A DNA stretch of 64,000 nucleotides from a virus. Lineage: Duplodnaviria > Heunggongvirae > Uroviricota > Caudoviricetes. This document shows, piece by piece, positions 57,133 to 60,411 of the stretch (position 1 is its first letter; each line of letters begins with the position of its first letter). Position numbers and translations under genes: made by a program. The notes under the pieces were generated by a model, which saw nothing but the letters and a program-made list of their open reading frames with translations, searched no databases and was not told the origin of the DNA. The stretch covers positions 1-64,000 of IMG/VR virus record IMGVR_UViG_2667527770_000005; one strand, written 5' to 3'.

Positions 57133-60100
57133 TATGGCTATAACGTCATGAGCAACACCTCGAGTGTCTCCCTTACAAGACACAGAACGTCTGGCAAAAA
57201 GAGGTTCCACTCTGAAGCCACTGTCATGATAAAGCTCTCTGATGTTTGGCGCGCCACTGTTAGTAATGAGAACTTTTGCACCTCGACGATGAGCATCCGT
57301 CAACAGAGACACCAGGCGTTTTTGCTCTTCAAACTTAAAGTCATGACCGGAATAGTTCGTGAATCCCTCTGTATTTGGAAGCGGTTCATACGGCGGATCG
57401 CAAAAGATGACATCTCCTTCTCCGGAAGCTTCAATCACCGCTGCAAAATCACCGCATACAAACTCAGACCGCCCTTCCGCACCGAGGAAGGCTTCCATCT
57501 CCTGTAATGGGAAATACGGAGTTTTATACTTCCCATAACCGACATTGAACTCACCGGCCTGGTTGTAACGCGTCAATCCGTTAAAACAATGTCGGTTCAG
57601 GAACAAAAACGCCGCTGCGCGATGTAAATCATCATAGACTTGTTTGTTAAACGCATTCCGTACTGCCAGGTATCCTTCCTGTGTGTTGTAGTCCTGGAAG
57701 AAACGATGTGCCAGAGTGATAAGTGAATGCGCCTCGCGTTGCAGAGTCTTGTAAAAGTTAATCAGGTCAGCATTCACATCATTTAGCAGATTTTCCTGGT
57801 ATCCGGCATTCATGAAGACAGCTCCGCCACCAACGAAAGGTTCAATCAGGCGCTTCCCTTCTGGCAAATAGCGAAAGATTTGTTCCAGAACACCAAATTT
57901 TCCACCAGCCCATTTGAATATGGACCGTTCGAATTCTGTCGCTGGTTTAACTTTTCGCTCTTTTGTTTCACTTCCTTCTTTCTGCCGACATACGGCCTTA
58001 GTAATCCGATCGCCAATCCAGCGCATTACTGGTATTGCCATACTATTGCCGATCGCTTTGTAACGCGGTCCGTCAGCTGCAAGCATCGCGGCCTCTTCTT
58101 CGCTTAAATCTGGATAGTGATTGCGGAGATATGCCAGTTCATCTGAATTAACTTTTTTACGCTTTTCCGTCGGGATCAACGTATGCCCATCAGGAAAACC
58201 TTGCAGCCTTTCACATTCGACAGGGGTAAGACGGCGGACAGCTACTTCTGCGTTTCTTACTTCATAGCAAACAGCTGTTGGATTTTTAGCCATTAGAGAT
58301 GGTGAAGTATTCTTAGTTGCAGCATGTTGTGTACCGCTCATACGCTCAGGAAAAGCCAATGTAACAAGATGCTCATGGCTTTCTTGCTCACGTGCCCGCA
58401 ATGTACCATGCCCTTCTGACCAAAAACCTGCTCCTGTGCTGCTAAAAACGGCAAGGTCAGTGGCATCTTTAAAATCTCTTGCCTTTACTGTCGATGCGGT
58501 TTCATCGTCAATATATTCCCCAAATGCCGCCATCCTGAAACCGTTTACGGCTTTCGTCGATTTCATACCGGGAGACATGCCAGCGTGTAGGCATGGATTT
58601 AGGCTTTCGCCACTGATTGCAGCGCCATTTGCAATAATGGCGGAAGCGATTTCCTTCTTTTTTCGGCTCGGCGCAATATTCCGGCGCACGCCTTCGAACT
58701 CAAAAAGTACCGTTGCGGGATCGAGGTCTGTTCGAGCACTTGCGACAACAAACACGCGTCGGCGTCGTTGTGCCACTCCGAAGTATTGGGCATCAAGGAT
58801 TCTCCAGGCCACCTTTCGCTGCGGTCCATAAATACAACCACACTGCGGCCACTTTGGAACATGGCAACCGGTTTTGCCATCCCACCGCCAGAACGCGTTG
58901 CTTTTTCCTGATTCAGGTCGATCACCTGGTTCAAATGGCACATCTTCTCCAGCCAATCCGGCAAGGAAACATCCGAAGGCGTTATCTGCCAATGACAAGA
59001 CTCCTGGGACATTTTCCCAGACGATAACGGCTGGTTTGAGAAATGACTCAGCCCGTTTGTCGTCAATTGCATTTGCAAGCTCCACATACTTTAAAGTTAG
59101 CGCGCCACGCTCATCATCAAGCCCACCACGTAATCCCGCGATACTGAATGCCTGACAGTTATGGACCACCGCACCATTGAGGATATAGGAATGATCACCT
59201 TCGACTTCTATGTTGTATACAGTATCTAGGCCTACCGATTTAAACTCTTTGACTGTTCGTAAAAGCATTCCATGAGCCAATCTTGATTTACGTGACAATT
59301 TCTGCGGGCAGATTGTTACCTGATAATAATCCCGTTGATTTACCACGCGATCCTCGATCACTTTTTTGGGCTCAACTTCAATAAAGCTGACCGAAGAAAC
59401 ATAACCACAAGTCTGTGACAACCCCGCAACGCCCCAAGCAAGCGCAGGACTAACACTATTAATTCTAAATCCCGCTTTACCACTTGGTGTCCCATCAGTA
59501 TCAAGATAGCCTTGTAAAAACACATGACGCAATGGATGCGACATCACCCATGCAGGGATACGTTTAGCATGGCTTAACTCGCCAAAATGTTCATTAAGCC
59601 AATTGGCATAACACGTATCATTCAAGGTTACTTTGATGCTCCCTCGGATTTCGCTTGCCACGGAAAACATGTTTTCTGGTATGTGGCAATGAAACTTTCT
59701 CAATTTCTGGCAATTTATGCCAAAAACAACCGCCTTCTTAGATTTACCTCTCCATCTCCTAATATATCCATCGCCTACATAAGCGCCCGCAAGATACATA
59801 GCCTGTTCTTCAGACAAGAACCGAGAACAAATATCTGGAGATGCAATATTGAAATTAGTTAGAGCGCACCATTGATATCCCGGCATATCACATGCTGCTC
59901 GCCATTCCGGTTCAGACAACAACTCTCTCTTAAAATATGTGCCATTTTTCCGGGTGTTTTGGGCTTTCCACCGAACAGCCAGGAAGGGATGGTCATTGGT
60001 TGTTCTTATACCTAAAGGCTGCCCAACGGCATTAAGTAACCCCGTATTAGCTATTTTTGAACCAACTCTTTTTACTTGTTGTAACCGCCCGAGATGACTG

Positions 60101-60411
60101 ACTACGTAATCGCCAGGGCAAACATCTTCTATTGGTTTATAACCATTTTTACAAAGAACCATATGCCCCGCGGTAAAACATGGTGTTCCCCCGACGAGCA
60201 CGTCAGGGGATTCGATTTCCCCAGCCAAGACTTTTTTGGCAAGTTTTGTCATGTCGCCAAGGTTGGCGACATGGGGCCAGCGGAGCGCAAGAACGGCAGA
60301 TGGAAAAGGCTCGATTTCAGCAAACCACGCCGGACGCATACCCAACGGTTCCCAGGCAATACTCGCGGCTTCAATTCCACTGCAAACAGATCCGTAGCAC
60401 AGCTCTTTCAC
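57124..60411 (-). CDS. dmt: Dmt bifunctional DNA methyltransferase (N-terminal C5-cytosine MTase, C-terminal Dam-like N6-adenine MTase) interrupted by an intein
   Basis: 1095-aa ORF; C5-MTase motifs [41 protein letters not shown]; Dam-like FKWAGGK and DPPY; motif IV GGTP-C...QAFS split by a 341-aa insert. Confidence 0.9.
59158..60180 (-). other. intein with LAGLIDADG homing-endonuclease domain inside dmt
   Basis: 341 aa (Dmt residues 78-418): begins CFTAGHMVL, block B TTNDH, two LAGLIDADG-type motifs ([21 protein letters not shown]), ends [21 protein letters not shown] followed by +1 Cys; excision restores GGTPCQAFS. Confidence 0.8.

What the first reader, a model, noticed from the sequence alone, without database searches (positions are those of the whole stretch)
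59158..60180. LAGLIDADG intein inserted at the catalytic PCQ cysteine of the Dmt methyltransferase
The dmt ORF is 1095 aa. Residues 78-418 form a block with intein hallmarks: N-terminal Cys (CFTAGHMVL), block-B TTNDH, two LAGLIDADG-like motifs, terminal VVHN and a +1 Cys. Removing these 341 aa joins GGTP to CQAFS, recreating C5-MTase motif IV; the +1 Cys would be the catalytic nucleophile. The remaining 754 aa form an intact C5-MTase plus Dam-like fusion, so cytosine-methylation activity would depend on splicing.
Basis: seen in the sequence. Interest (0 to 1): 0.8.

Follow-up and report, generated by a model that had tools for sequence, protein, structure and literature searches.

The report
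Homing intein splitting P1-family Dmt methyltransferase
The dmt gene of this P1-like phage-plasmid is interrupted, exactly at the catalytic cysteine of its cytosine-methyltransferase half, by a canonical self-splicing intein with a LAGLIDADG homing endonuclease; it sits in about a quarter of sequenced P1-like plasmids, I found it described nowhere, and it is an ordinary intein in a new host gene, not a new kind of element.

Summary
The ORF 57124..60411 (-) encodes 1095 aa. Residues 78-418 (59158..60180) are exactly absent from the 754-aa Dmt of reference phage P1, whose sequence reads ...GTP|CQAFS.

The 341-aa block passes curated intein and LAGLIDADG models. It has Cys1, TxxH, two LAGLIDADG motifs with their acidic residues, a terminal HN and a +1 Cys. 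It folds with high confidence (pLDDT 93) into a structure whose best PDB matches are all LAGLIDADG inteins, led by PI-SceI.

In-silico splicing rebuilds motif IV, GGTPCQAFS, which aligns to GFPCQAFS of M.HhaI. From my own knowledge, that cysteine is Cys81, the catalytic nucleophile.

The intein is polymorphic: about 27% of P1-like plasmids in PLSDB and 152 of 5426 complete E. coli genomes carry it, as does a laboratory P1vir stock. It is far less diverse than its flanks and sits on several dmt backgrounds. Its splicing module looks constrained and its endonuclease module relaxed, though the counts are small.

Related inteins occupy the same site in other bacterial and phage C5-methyltransferases. 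Inteins in phage C-5 methylases have been reported for actinophages.

Verdict: a real intein, and a new member of a known kind. Splicing and homing are inferred, not shown. The native -1 proline is the one unusual feature.

The parts
57124..60411 (-). dmt precursor ORF, 1095 aa: N-extein, intein and C-extein (rest of the C5-MTase plus the Dam-type N6A-MTase)
   Evidence: ORF list. It is 99% identical to dmt of phage RCS47. Pfam finds DNA_methylase and MethyltransfD12.
60181..60411 (-). N-extein, aa 1-77: C5-MTase motif I region up to ...VLVGGTP
   Evidence: Alignment to P1 Dmt and to M.HhaI.
59158..60180 (-). Intein, 341 aa (Dmt residues 78-418)
   Evidence: Exact indel against P1 reference Dmt. 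Family-model hits. AlphaFold model with Foldseek matches to PI-SceI, TliVMA and PI-PfuI inteins.
59851..60180 (-). N-terminal splicing (HINT) region, intein residues about 1-110, with Cys1 at 60178..60180
   Evidence: Hint_2 hit on residues 1-49. The model is all beta-strand over residues 1-107. C1 is invariant in 14 homologues. Boundaries are approximate.
59989..60003 (-). Block B, TTNDH (intein residues 60-64; T61 and H64)
   Evidence: T61 and H64 are invariant across 14 homologues.
59311..59850 (-). LAGLIDADG homing-endonuclease domain, intein residues about 111-290 (approximate boundaries)
   Evidence: LAGLIDADG_3 above its cutoff. Sequence match to PI-PkoII. Fold matches to I-SceI and I-DmoI.
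59764..59793 (-). LAGLIDADG motif 1, [10 protein letters not shown] (acidic residue D137)
   Evidence: G132 is invariant in 14 homologues. G136, D137 and G138 are invariant in the 7 closer homologues.
59488..59517 (-). LAGLIDADG motif 2, [10 protein letters not shown] (acidic residue D229)
   Evidence: G224 is invariant in 14 homologues and G230 nearly so. The position of D229 is Asp in 12 of the 13 homologues that have the endonuclease domain and Asn in P0009.
59158..59310 (-). C-terminal splicing region, intein residues about 291-341, including block F ([12 protein letters not shown]) and block G (GAVVHN)
   Evidence: NCBIfam intein_Cterm hit. Match to the C-terminus of the Spl DnaX mini-intein. 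N341 is invariant.
59155..59157 (-). +1 Cys codon (Dmt Cys419). It would be both the splice-junction nucleophile and the C5-MTase motif IV Cys.
   Evidence: The spliced GGTPCQAFS aligns to GFPCQAFS of M.HhaI. That this is catalytic Cys81 is established knowledge recalled by me, not a tool result.
57133..57930 (-). Dam-type N6-adenine methyltransferase domain, precursor aa about 828-1093, downstream of the intein in the same polypeptide
   Evidence: TIGR00571 dam at 249 bits and PF02086 at 191 bits.
61633..61678 (-). Homologue of the C1-controlled operator Odmt and promoter Pdmt of the uhr-hrdC-dmt operon
   Evidence: The P1 annotation is. The window reads ATTGCCCTAATAAATAT where P1 reads ATTGCTCTAATAAATAT. 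uhr lies at 61306..61590 and hrdC at 60408..61313.

Best explanation
This is a canonical class-1-type intein carrying a double-motif LAGLIDADG homing endonuclease. It is inserted in dmt of a P1-like phage-plasmid, between Pro77 and the Cys of C5-methyltransferase motif IV (PCQ).

Proposed mechanism (all steps inferred):
- The uhr-hrdC-dmt operon is transcribed from the C1-repressed promoter, as annotated in P1, giving a 1095-aa precursor.
- Cys1 makes the N-S acyl shift at the Pro77-Cys78 bond.
- The +1 Cys (Cys419) attacks that thioester.
- Asn341 cyclises, releasing the 341-aa intein and ligating the exteins into 754-aa Dmt with motif IV GGTPCQAFS restored.
- The same cysteine then serves as the nucleophile for cytosine-C5 methylation.
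- The Dam domain lies C-terminal to the intein and may work in the precursor as well.

At the DNA level, the free intein, or the precursor, is expected to cut intein-less dmt alleles at the motif-IV coding sequence when two P1-like genomes share a cell. Repair would then copy the intein plus a short flank.

What is shown here: the anatomy, the fold, the exact presence/absence polymorphism and the population signatures. What is inferred: splicing, endonuclease activity, homing and the regulation.
For: 1. Exact in-frame 341-aa indel against P1 reference Dmt. In PLSDB, 361 of 497 dmt-bearing plasmids are uninterrupted at the junction and 133 carry the insert.

2. Curated models pass their cutoffs: LAGLIDADG_3, Hint_2 and intein_Cterm.

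3. C1, T61, H64, N341 and the +1 Cys are conserved in 14 homologues of 25-52% identity.

4. The AlphaFold model has pLDDT 93.4 and pTM 0.90. The top 16 Foldseek PDB hits are all intein-endonucleases: PI-SceI (E = 9e-17), the TliVMA and PhoVMA inteins, PI-PfuI and PI-PkoII.

5. The spliced junction aligns to PCQAFS of M.HhaI, and the Pfam C5-MTase score rises on splicing.

6. The intein ORF is intact in all 26 IMG/VR copies, and all 153 copies in complete E. coli genomes are full length at 98.7% identity or better.

7. Mobility signature. Intein nucleotide diversity is 0.0056 (maximum 1.1%), against 0.034 (maximum 9.5%) in the adjacent N-extein and 0.015 in the C-extein. The same three TRD length variants of Dmt occur both with and without the intein.

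8. Selection. pN/pS is 0.10 in the splicing module, 0.66 in the endonuclease module and 0.17-0.18 in the exteins. Fisher's test for splicing against endonuclease module gives p = 0.025.

9. Related inteins occupy the same ...P|C...N|C(Q/T) site in other C5-MTases: a Metarhizobium album prophage, Mannheimia, a Pseudonocardia MAG, other GC-rich contigs of unknown source and a Clostridia MAG.
Against: There is no experimental evidence for splicing or cleavage.

The native -1 residue is proline. One paper states that natural and engineered inteins had failed with Pro at -1 (PMC6486613).

A CRISPRi screen scored dmt as nonessential in P1 (PMC10695390). The Dam domain lies downstream regardless of splicing. 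Selection for splicing need not therefore be strong.

Two of the 24 IMG/VR intein-bearing alleles whose N-extein is fully contained in the contig have that N-extein broken by a frameshift or stop.

The endonuclease module shows relaxed constraint, so the nuclease may be decaying. The polymorphism counts are small (29 segregating sites) and the copies are phylogenetically related.
Confidence: 0.85

Rival explanations
1. It is a splicing-dead or very poorly splicing intein. On this view the insert is selfish DNA that has knocked out the dispensable C5-methyltransferase half of Dmt, while the downstream Dam domain still works inside the 1095-aa fusion.
For: Pro at -1 is reported as incompatible with splicing for other inteins (PMC6486613). 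dmt was scored nonessential in P1. The reference P1 itself carries a G75W change in motif IV, which suggests the C5 activity can be lost. Some intein-bearing alleles have broken N-exteins.
Against: All splicing residues are intact in every copy, and they are conserved down to 25-30% identity. All relatives at this site also have a non-standard -1 residue (Pro, or Glu in two of them). pN/pS of the splicing module is 0.10, as low as or lower than the exteins. The exteins of intein-bearing alleles are themselves under purifying selection (0.17).
Confidence: 0.12
2. It is a functional splicing intein whose endonuclease is already inactive. Its spread across dmt backgrounds would then be due to ordinary homologous recombination among P1-like elements, not to homing.
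For: Endonuclease-module pN/pS is 0.66, with 12 nonsynonymous against 5 synonymous changes; it differs from the splicing module (p = 0.025) and from the exteins (p = 0.008). dmt alleles are visibly mosaic, with swapped TRDs, so recombination is frequent in any case.
Against: Both LAGLIDADG acidic residues (D137, D229) are intact, and none of the 12 nonsynonymous variants listed is at either position. The domain is conserved across homologues of about 50% identity. The flank shared by all intein-bearing alleles is very short, about 6 nt upstream. Intein diversity is 3-6 fold lower than that of its flanks. Both observations fit repeated recent invasions.
Confidence: 0.35
3. It is not an intein but a conserved accessory domain of Dmt that is never excised, for example a domesticated HINT/LAGLIDADG DNA-binding module or a nuclease partner as in a restriction-modification fusion, or a bacterial intein-like (BIL) domain.
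For: Public annotation treats the 1095-aa protein as a single methyltransferase.
Against: About 73% of alleles lack it at a codon-exact boundary. It splits the catalytic PC dipeptide. It retains every splicing residue, including the +1 Cys. It has an endonuclease domain, which BIL domains lack (my own knowledge). Rfam gives no hit, and the reading frame is continuous, which rules out an intron.
Confidence: 0.02

Closest known systems
PI-SceI (Sce VMA1 intein) and the archaeal VMA and Pol inteins (TliVMA, PhoVMA, PI-PfuI, PI-PkoII)
   Same: Bifunctional architecture: a HINT splicing domain interrupted by a double-motif LAGLIDADG endonuclease. These are the best structural matches (Foldseek E from 9e-17 to 5e-9). 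They share Cys1, TxxH, HN and a +1 Cys.
   Different: Only 10-16% sequence identity. This intein is smaller (341 aa against 360-540) and appears to lack the extra DNA-recognition region of PI-SceI (inference from its size). The host protein and the -1 residue (Pro) differ.
Inteins in phage DNA methyltransferases: mycobacteriophage N6/N4 DNMT-1/2 (PMC5050341), an actinophage methylase (PMC9957025), and actinophage C-5 methylases (bioRxiv 10.1101/2025.01.02.630785)
   Same: A LAGLIDADG intein in an orphan phage DNA methyltransferase, with patchy distribution and evidence of transfer between divergent alleles.
   Different: Those hosts are actinobacteriophages. I did not check the insertion site of the reported C-5 methylase inteins. 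Here the host is the bifunctional C5+Dam Dmt of enterobacterial P1-like phage-plasmids, and the site is the catalytic PC dipeptide.
Inteins found here at the same C5-MTase motif IV site: a Metarhizobium album prophage (L030/L191), Mannheimia haemolytica (P0012), a Pseudonocardia MAG (P0023), GC-rich contigs of unknown source (P0018, P0020, P0022), a Clostridia MAG (L198), and the mini-intein P0025
   Same: Same insertion point, (G)GxP|C...N|C(Q/T). Intein identity to the window is 48-52% for the closest and 28-34% for the distant ones.
   Different: The exteins are different stand-alone C5-MTases without the Dam fusion. Some copies are degenerate: P0012 is truncated after CQ, P0009 has an Asn in motif 2 and reads VVNN at its end, and P0025 lacks the endonuclease.
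Spl/Ssp DnaX mini-inteins
   Same: The best sequence match in the PDB for the C-terminal splicing region (7cfv). Engineered Ssp DnaX inteins are the reported exception that tolerates Pro at -1 (PMC6486613).
   Different: Those are mini-inteins or engineered inteins in DnaX. Pro at -1 is not their native context.

Membership tests
Intein (class 1, HINT-fold protein-splicing element) | In-frame insertion in a host ORF that is absent, at codon-exact boundaries, from orthologous alleles | tested here: met
   P1 reference Dmt lacks exactly residues 78-418. 361 of 497 PLSDB plasmids and 77 IMG/VR contigs have the uninterrupted junction.
Intein (class 1, HINT-fold protein-splicing element) | N-terminal nucleophile (Cys or Ser at position 1) and block B TxxH | tested here: met
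   C1, T61 and H64 are present and invariant in 14 homologues.
Intein (class 1, HINT-fold protein-splicing element) | C-terminal (His-)Asn followed by a +1 Cys, Ser or Thr | tested here: met
   The sequence reads ...VVHN|C. N341 is invariant and the +1 Cys nearly so. TIGR01443 scores 25.9 bits against a cutoff of 15.6.
Intein (class 1, HINT-fold protein-splicing element) | HINT fold | tested here: met
   AlphaFold model with pLDDT 93.4. Foldseek matches PI-SceI, VMA inteins and Prp8 inteins. Hint_2 is at its cutoff. The Pfam Intein_splicing model is below cutoff (21.8 against 35.8).
Intein (class 1, HINT-fold protein-splicing element) | Autocatalytic excision with ligation of the exteins | not testable with these tools
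   Supported only indirectly, by conserved splicing residues and a pN/pS of 0.10 in the splicing module.
LAGLIDADG homing endonuclease (double-motif, intein-borne) | Two LAGLIDADG motifs, each with the metal-binding acidic residue, in the alpha-beta-beta-alpha-beta-beta-alpha fold | tested here: met
   LAGAYVGDG (D137) and LQGYLDTDG (D229). PF14528 scores 34.5 bits. Fold matches to I-SceI and I-DmoI.
LAGLIDADG homing endonuclease (double-motif, intein-borne) | Site-specific cleavage of the intein-less allele, and homing | tested here: inconclusive
   The population data fit mobility: low intein diversity against its flanks, several extein backgrounds and a short shared flank. Ordinary recombination could do the same. 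The endonuclease module has pN/pS 0.66. Cleavage cannot be tested here.
C5 cytosine DNA methyltransferase (PF00145), as host of the insertion | Motif IV PCQ catalytic cysteine recreated at the splice junction | tested here: met
   The spliced GGTPCQAFS aligns to GFPCQAFS of M.HhaI. PF00145 rises from 103.5 to 124 bits, with one contiguous N-terminal match. That this Cys is the HhaI nucleophile (Cys81) is my own knowledge.
C5 cytosine DNA methyltransferase (PF00145), as host of the insertion | Demonstrated 5-methylcytosine activity of Dmt | not tested
   The P1 GenBank note says 'perhaps at C5 cytosine'. I found no experimental paper.
Bacterial intein-like (BIL) domain | HINT domain without an endonuclease, usually in variable non-conserved proteins, and often without a +1 nucleophile | tested here: not met
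   This element has an endonuclease domain and a conserved +1 Cys, and it sits in the most conserved motif of its host.
Group I or II intron with a LAGLIDADG ORF | Structured intron RNA, with the host reading frame interrupted at the RNA level | tested here: not met
   No Rfam match at E <= 1 in 58800..60500. The reading frame runs continuously through the insert in all copies.

The most novel reading that the evidence does not exclude
This C5-methyltransferase intein family has evolved to splice with an obligatory proline at -1, a context reported to block other inteins. Because its +1 cysteine is also the methyltransferase nucleophile, splicing would act as a conditional post-translational switch, for example one sensitive to redox state. 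That switch would turn on cytosine methylation of P1-family DNA only during lytic growth, while the precursor already supplies Dam activity. It would also give a native E. coli system, present in a laboratory P1vir stock, for studying homing and conditional splicing, and a proline-tolerant intein for protein engineering.
Probability: 0.12. Interest if true: 0.7.

Novelty: new member of a known kind. Interest (0 to 1): 0.42.

Why it matters
P1 is one of the most used phages in bacterial genetics, and P1-like phage-plasmids are common carriers of resistance genes.

About a quarter of sequenced P1-like plasmids, roughly 3% of complete E. coli genomes and at least one laboratory P1vir stock encode this intein. 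Yet every record I saw calls the protein simply a Dam-family or DNA methyltransferase, and I found no paper that mentions the intein.

Practical consequences:
- The annotated 1095-aa protein is probably not the mature enzyme.
- The cytosine-methylation phenotype of these elements, which bears on evasion of restriction systems, would depend on splicing.
- Both intein-bearing and intein-less P1 strains exist, so homing and splicing can be tested directly in E. coli.
- The native -1 proline could interest protein engineers.

Conceptually it adds nothing new to intein biology.

Tried and rejected
- **Intron alternative.** Rfam found nothing, so this was rejected.
- **Genome scan with the 14-sequence alignment.** I repeated it with 7 closer sequences.
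- **Empty sites carrying the intein-side flank (CCA|TGT).** These would mark precise intein loss or uninvaded susceptible sites. I found none in IMG/VR. In PLSDB all 66 full-length matches to the 63-nt empty-site probe fall in the 95-99% identity band, and in complete E. coli genomes all 47 do; the best is 96.8% and none is exact.
- **Literature.** Ten searches found no description of an intein in Dmt or in P1-like elements. One search was wasted by a poor term choice. Subscription-only papers (for example the RCS47 paper and Gilcrease and Casjens on plasmid prophages) and InBase could not be checked.
- **Divergence-based dN/dS against the homologues of about 50% identity.** Not attempted, because I expected synonymous sites to be saturated.
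- **Not done.** I did not model the full precursor, and I did not use the large representative-protein search, because neither would change the verdict.
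Full report
**1. Observation**

The window holds a 1095-aa ORF at 57124..60411 on the minus strand, with a GTG start. Residues 78-418 map exactly to 59158..60180. They start CFTAGHMVL and end GAVVHN, and are followed by CQAFS.

The gene is dmt of a P1-like element. It is 99.2% identical over its whole length to dmt of phage RCS47. It lies downstream of uhr and hrdC/rdgC, as in P1.

Against the 754-aa Dmt of reference P1 (AF234172), the alignment has a single gap covering exactly the 341 residues...VLVWGTP|CQAFSIAG....

**2. What the insert is**

Curated models above their cutoffs:
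- Pfam LAGLIDADG_3: 34.5 bits (cutoff 22.5).
- Pfam Hint_2: 28.5 bits (cutoff 28.4).
- NCBIfam intein C-terminal splicing region: 25.9 bits (cutoff 15.6).
- The Pfam Intein_splicing model is below its cutoff.

By sequence, the C-terminus matches the Spl DnaX mini-intein, and the middle matches the LAGLIDADG region of PI-PkoII.

I aligned the insert with 13 homologues of 25-52% identity. Invariant positions include C1, T61 and H64 (block B), G132 and G224 (the two LAGLIDADG motifs) and N341. The +1 Cys is nearly invariant. The acidic residues of both motifs are present: D137 in LAGAYVGDG and D229 in LQGYLDTDG.

AlphaFold2 with that alignment gave pLDDT 93.4 and pTM 0.90. Foldseek against the PDB returned only intein-endonucleases in the first 16 places: PI-SceI (E = 9e-17), the TliVMA and PhoVMA inteins, PI-PfuI and PI-PkoII. 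Free-standing LAGLIDADG enzymes (I-SceI, I-DmoI) and Prp8 mini-inteins followed.

Rfam finds no intron. The insert is therefore a canonical class-1-type intein with a double-motif LAGLIDADG endonuclease.

**3. Where it sits**

The in-silico spliced N-terminus aligns to M.HhaI with [12 protein letters not shown] opposite GFPCQAFSISG. From my own knowledge, that cysteine is HhaI Cys81, the catalytic nucleophile of motif IV.

Splicing in silico raises the Pfam DNA_methylase score from 103.5 bits in three pieces to 124 bits, with one contiguous N-terminal match.

The Dam-type domain (TIGR00571, 249 bits) lies C-terminal to the intein. It would be translated whether or not splicing occurs.

**4. 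Distribution**

- Among phage records, the intein is in RCS47, vB_EcoM-Ro157c2YLVW and OP279344. It is absent from the P1 references, P7, SJ46, JL22 and others.
- OP279344 is the genome of a laboratory P1vir stock (bioRxiv 10.1101/2022.09.09.507302).
- In PLSDB, 133 plasmids carry the intein DNA. 497 have the dmt junction region, and 361 of those are uninterrupted. About 27% are therefore intein-bearing.
- In complete RefSeq E. coli genomes, 152 of 5426 carry it. All copies are full length and at least 98.7% identical.
- Every record listed names the protein only 'Dam family site-specific DNA-(adenine-N6)-methyltransferase', 'DNA methyltransferase' or similar. This includes the exact 1095-aa sequence, which is in NCBI and seen on 21 contigs.

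**5. Population signatures**

I compared 26 IMG/VR loci with the intein, the phage copies and the window with intein-less alleles.

- *Integrity.* The intein ORF is intact in all 26.
- *Diversity.* Pairwise diversity is 0.0056 in the intein (maximum 1.1%). It is 0.034 (maximum 9.5%) in the 231-nt N-extein and 0.015 in the first 495 nt of the C-extein.
- *Backgrounds.* Intein-bearing alleles lie on several extein backgrounds. Some are closer to intein-less alleles than to other intein-bearing ones. L017 and L018 have an N-extein nearest to L046. L010 and L022 have a C-extein nearest to L036 and L032.
- *TRD variants.* The Dmt variable (TRD) region comes in lengths of 154, 72 and 207 aa, and each length occurs both with and without the intein.
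- *Shared flank.* The flank shared by all intein-bearing alleles is only about 6 nt upstream (ACACCA).
- *One fixed difference.* The third base of the Pro77 codon is CCA in all 29 intein-bearing alleles I tabulated and CCT in all 77 intein-less IMG/VR alleles. An empty site with CCA is absent from IMG/VR. In PLSDB and in complete E. coli genomes, no full-length match to a 63-nt probe built from the intein-side flanks is exact; the best is 96.8%.

This pattern fits repeated recent movement of the intein with a very short co-converted tract, and no detectable precise loss. It does not separate homing from ordinary recombination.

**6. Selection**

| Region | Nonsynonymous | Synonymous | pN/pS |
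|---|---|---|---|
| Splicing module | 3 | 9 | 0.10 |
| Endonuclease module | 12 | 5 | 0.66 |
| Exteins | n/a | n/a | 0.17-0.18 |

Fisher's test gives p = 0.025 for the splicing module against the endonuclease module and p = 0.008 for the endonuclease module against the exteins.

None of the variants touches C1, T61, H64, D137, D229, H340 or N341. The counts are small and the copies are related, so this is suggestive only. It is the pattern expected if splicing still matters and the endonuclease is under weaker constraint.

**7. Relatives**

The protein search found inteins of 48-52% identity at the same GGTP|C...HN|CQ site in other C5-methyltransferases:
- several metagenomic contigs;
- an 850-aa ORF in a Metarhizobium album prophage (L030/L191);
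- a Mannheimia haemolytica protein that is truncated just after CQ (P0012).

More distant relatives, and relatives in other host proteins:
- Inteins of 28-34% identity at the equivalent site. P0018 and P0022 read GGFP|C and GGSP|C. P0020 and P0023 read SPE|C...N|CTNHS. P0023 is from a Pseudonocardia MAG, and the sources of the other three are not named.
- A Clostridia MAG with GGSP|C...|CTYWS (L198).
- A mini-intein without an endonuclease at the same site (P0025).
- More distant relatives in other host proteins. Judged from their flanking motifs alone, these look like ribonucleotide reductase and SufB. This shows ordinary membership of the intein superfamily.

**8. Mechanism**

What is shown: the anatomy, the fold, the exact indel polymorphism and the conserved catalytic residues.

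What is inferred:
- transcription from the C1-controlled Pdmt, whose homologue is at 61633..61678 with one operator mismatch relative to P1;
- the standard four-step class-1 splicing pathway using Cys78, Cys419 and Asn418;
- restoration of motif IV;
- endonuclease cleavage of intein-less alleles when two P1-like genomes share a cell.

The main caveat is the -1 proline. One paper states that natural and engineered inteins had failed with Pro at -1 (PMC6486613). Yet nearly all relatives at this site have Pro there, because it is the P of the PC motif. Either the family is adapted to it, or splicing is slow.

A second caveat is that a CRISPRi screen scored dmt as nonessential in P1 (PMC10695390). 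In addition, the Dam function needed for packaging in dam-negative hosts (PMC12707154) lies downstream of the intein.

**9. Comparison with what is known, and novelty**

Inteins typically sit at catalytic sites of nucleic-acid enzymes. Inteins in phage DNA methylases are documented for mycobacteriophage N6/N4 enzymes (PMC5050341) and for an actinophage methylase family (PMC9957025). A 2025 survey lists C-5 methylases among actinophage intein hosts (bioRxiv 10.1101/2025.01.02.630785).

I found no paper that mentions an intein in Dmt, P1 or P1-like phage-plasmids. I could not search subscription journals or InBase.

The finding is therefore a new, unannotated member of a well-known kind.

Interest is moderate, for three reasons: the host is a classic model phage with intein-bearing and intein-less strains at hand, the element is common in E. 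coli plasmids, and the native -1 proline is unusual.

Noticed in passing
L001 (AF234172) Dmt residue 75; window equivalent 60187..60189: Reference P1 (mod749::IS5 c1.100) has Trp where every other allele examined has Gly, in the GG(T)PCQ motif IV (VLVWGTPCQ against VLVGGTPCQ). This may mean that the C5-methyltransferase of the sequenced laboratory reference strain is impaired.
   Followed up: partly
window 60181 (third base of the Pro77 codon); loci L004-L029 and L112-L188: The base just 5' of the intein is the only fixed difference between the two allele classes. It is CCA in all 29 intein-bearing alleles tabulated and CCT in all 77 intein-less IMG/VR alleles. No exact CCA empty site turned up in PLSDB or in complete E. 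coli genomes. It could be a co-converted donor base or a determinant of cleavage.
   Followed up: yes
window about 58100..58750 (Dmt variable region between VLFE and [15 protein letters not shown]); L003, L012, L028: The presumed target-recognition region of the C5-methyltransferase half of Dmt comes in at least four length classes (72, 154, 207 and 262 aa) among P1-like elements. This suggests swapped methylation specificities. The window has the 154-aa, P1-type version.
   Followed up: partly
L003 (OP279344.1) 1501..4542: A laboratory P1vir stock, sequenced for an Argonaute study, carries the intein and the short 72-aa variable region. It therefore differs from the P1 reference in dmt. Laboratory 'P1' strains are not uniform at this locus.
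   Followed up: partly
P0012 and P0026, cluster members: In Mannheimia haemolytica, the related intein-bearing C5-methyltransferase ORF ends 20 residues after the +1 Cys (439 aa, seen on 578 contigs). A Rodentibacter 'DNA cytosine methyltransferase' ORF starts inside the C-terminal part of the intein. Both look like decaying copies.
   Followed up: no
P0025 and P0009: P0025 is a mini-intein without an endonuclease domain at the same GGTP|C site. P0009 has Asn in place of the second LAGLIDADG Asp and VVNN in place of VVHN. These look like stages of intein degeneration at one insertion site.
   Followed up: no
L006 and L008, N-extein: Two IMG/VR P1-like contigs have a frameshift or stop in the dmt N-extein upstream of an intact intein ORF.
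   Followed up: no
window 57124..57430 (3' end of dmt): The window's dmt matches plasmid pS51_2 (NZ_CP015997) except for 8 differences in the last 303 nt, 6 of them within the last 46 nt. The C-terminus reads ...HDVIAILL where P1, RCS47 and OP279344 read ...HDVLGILL. In P1 this stretch overlaps the ban promoter and operator region.
   Followed up: no
window 61662..61678 (-): The homologue of the C1 operator Odmt differs from P1 at one position (ATTGCCCTAATAAATAT against ATTGCTCTAATAAATAT). The promoter spacer also has one change.
   Followed up: no
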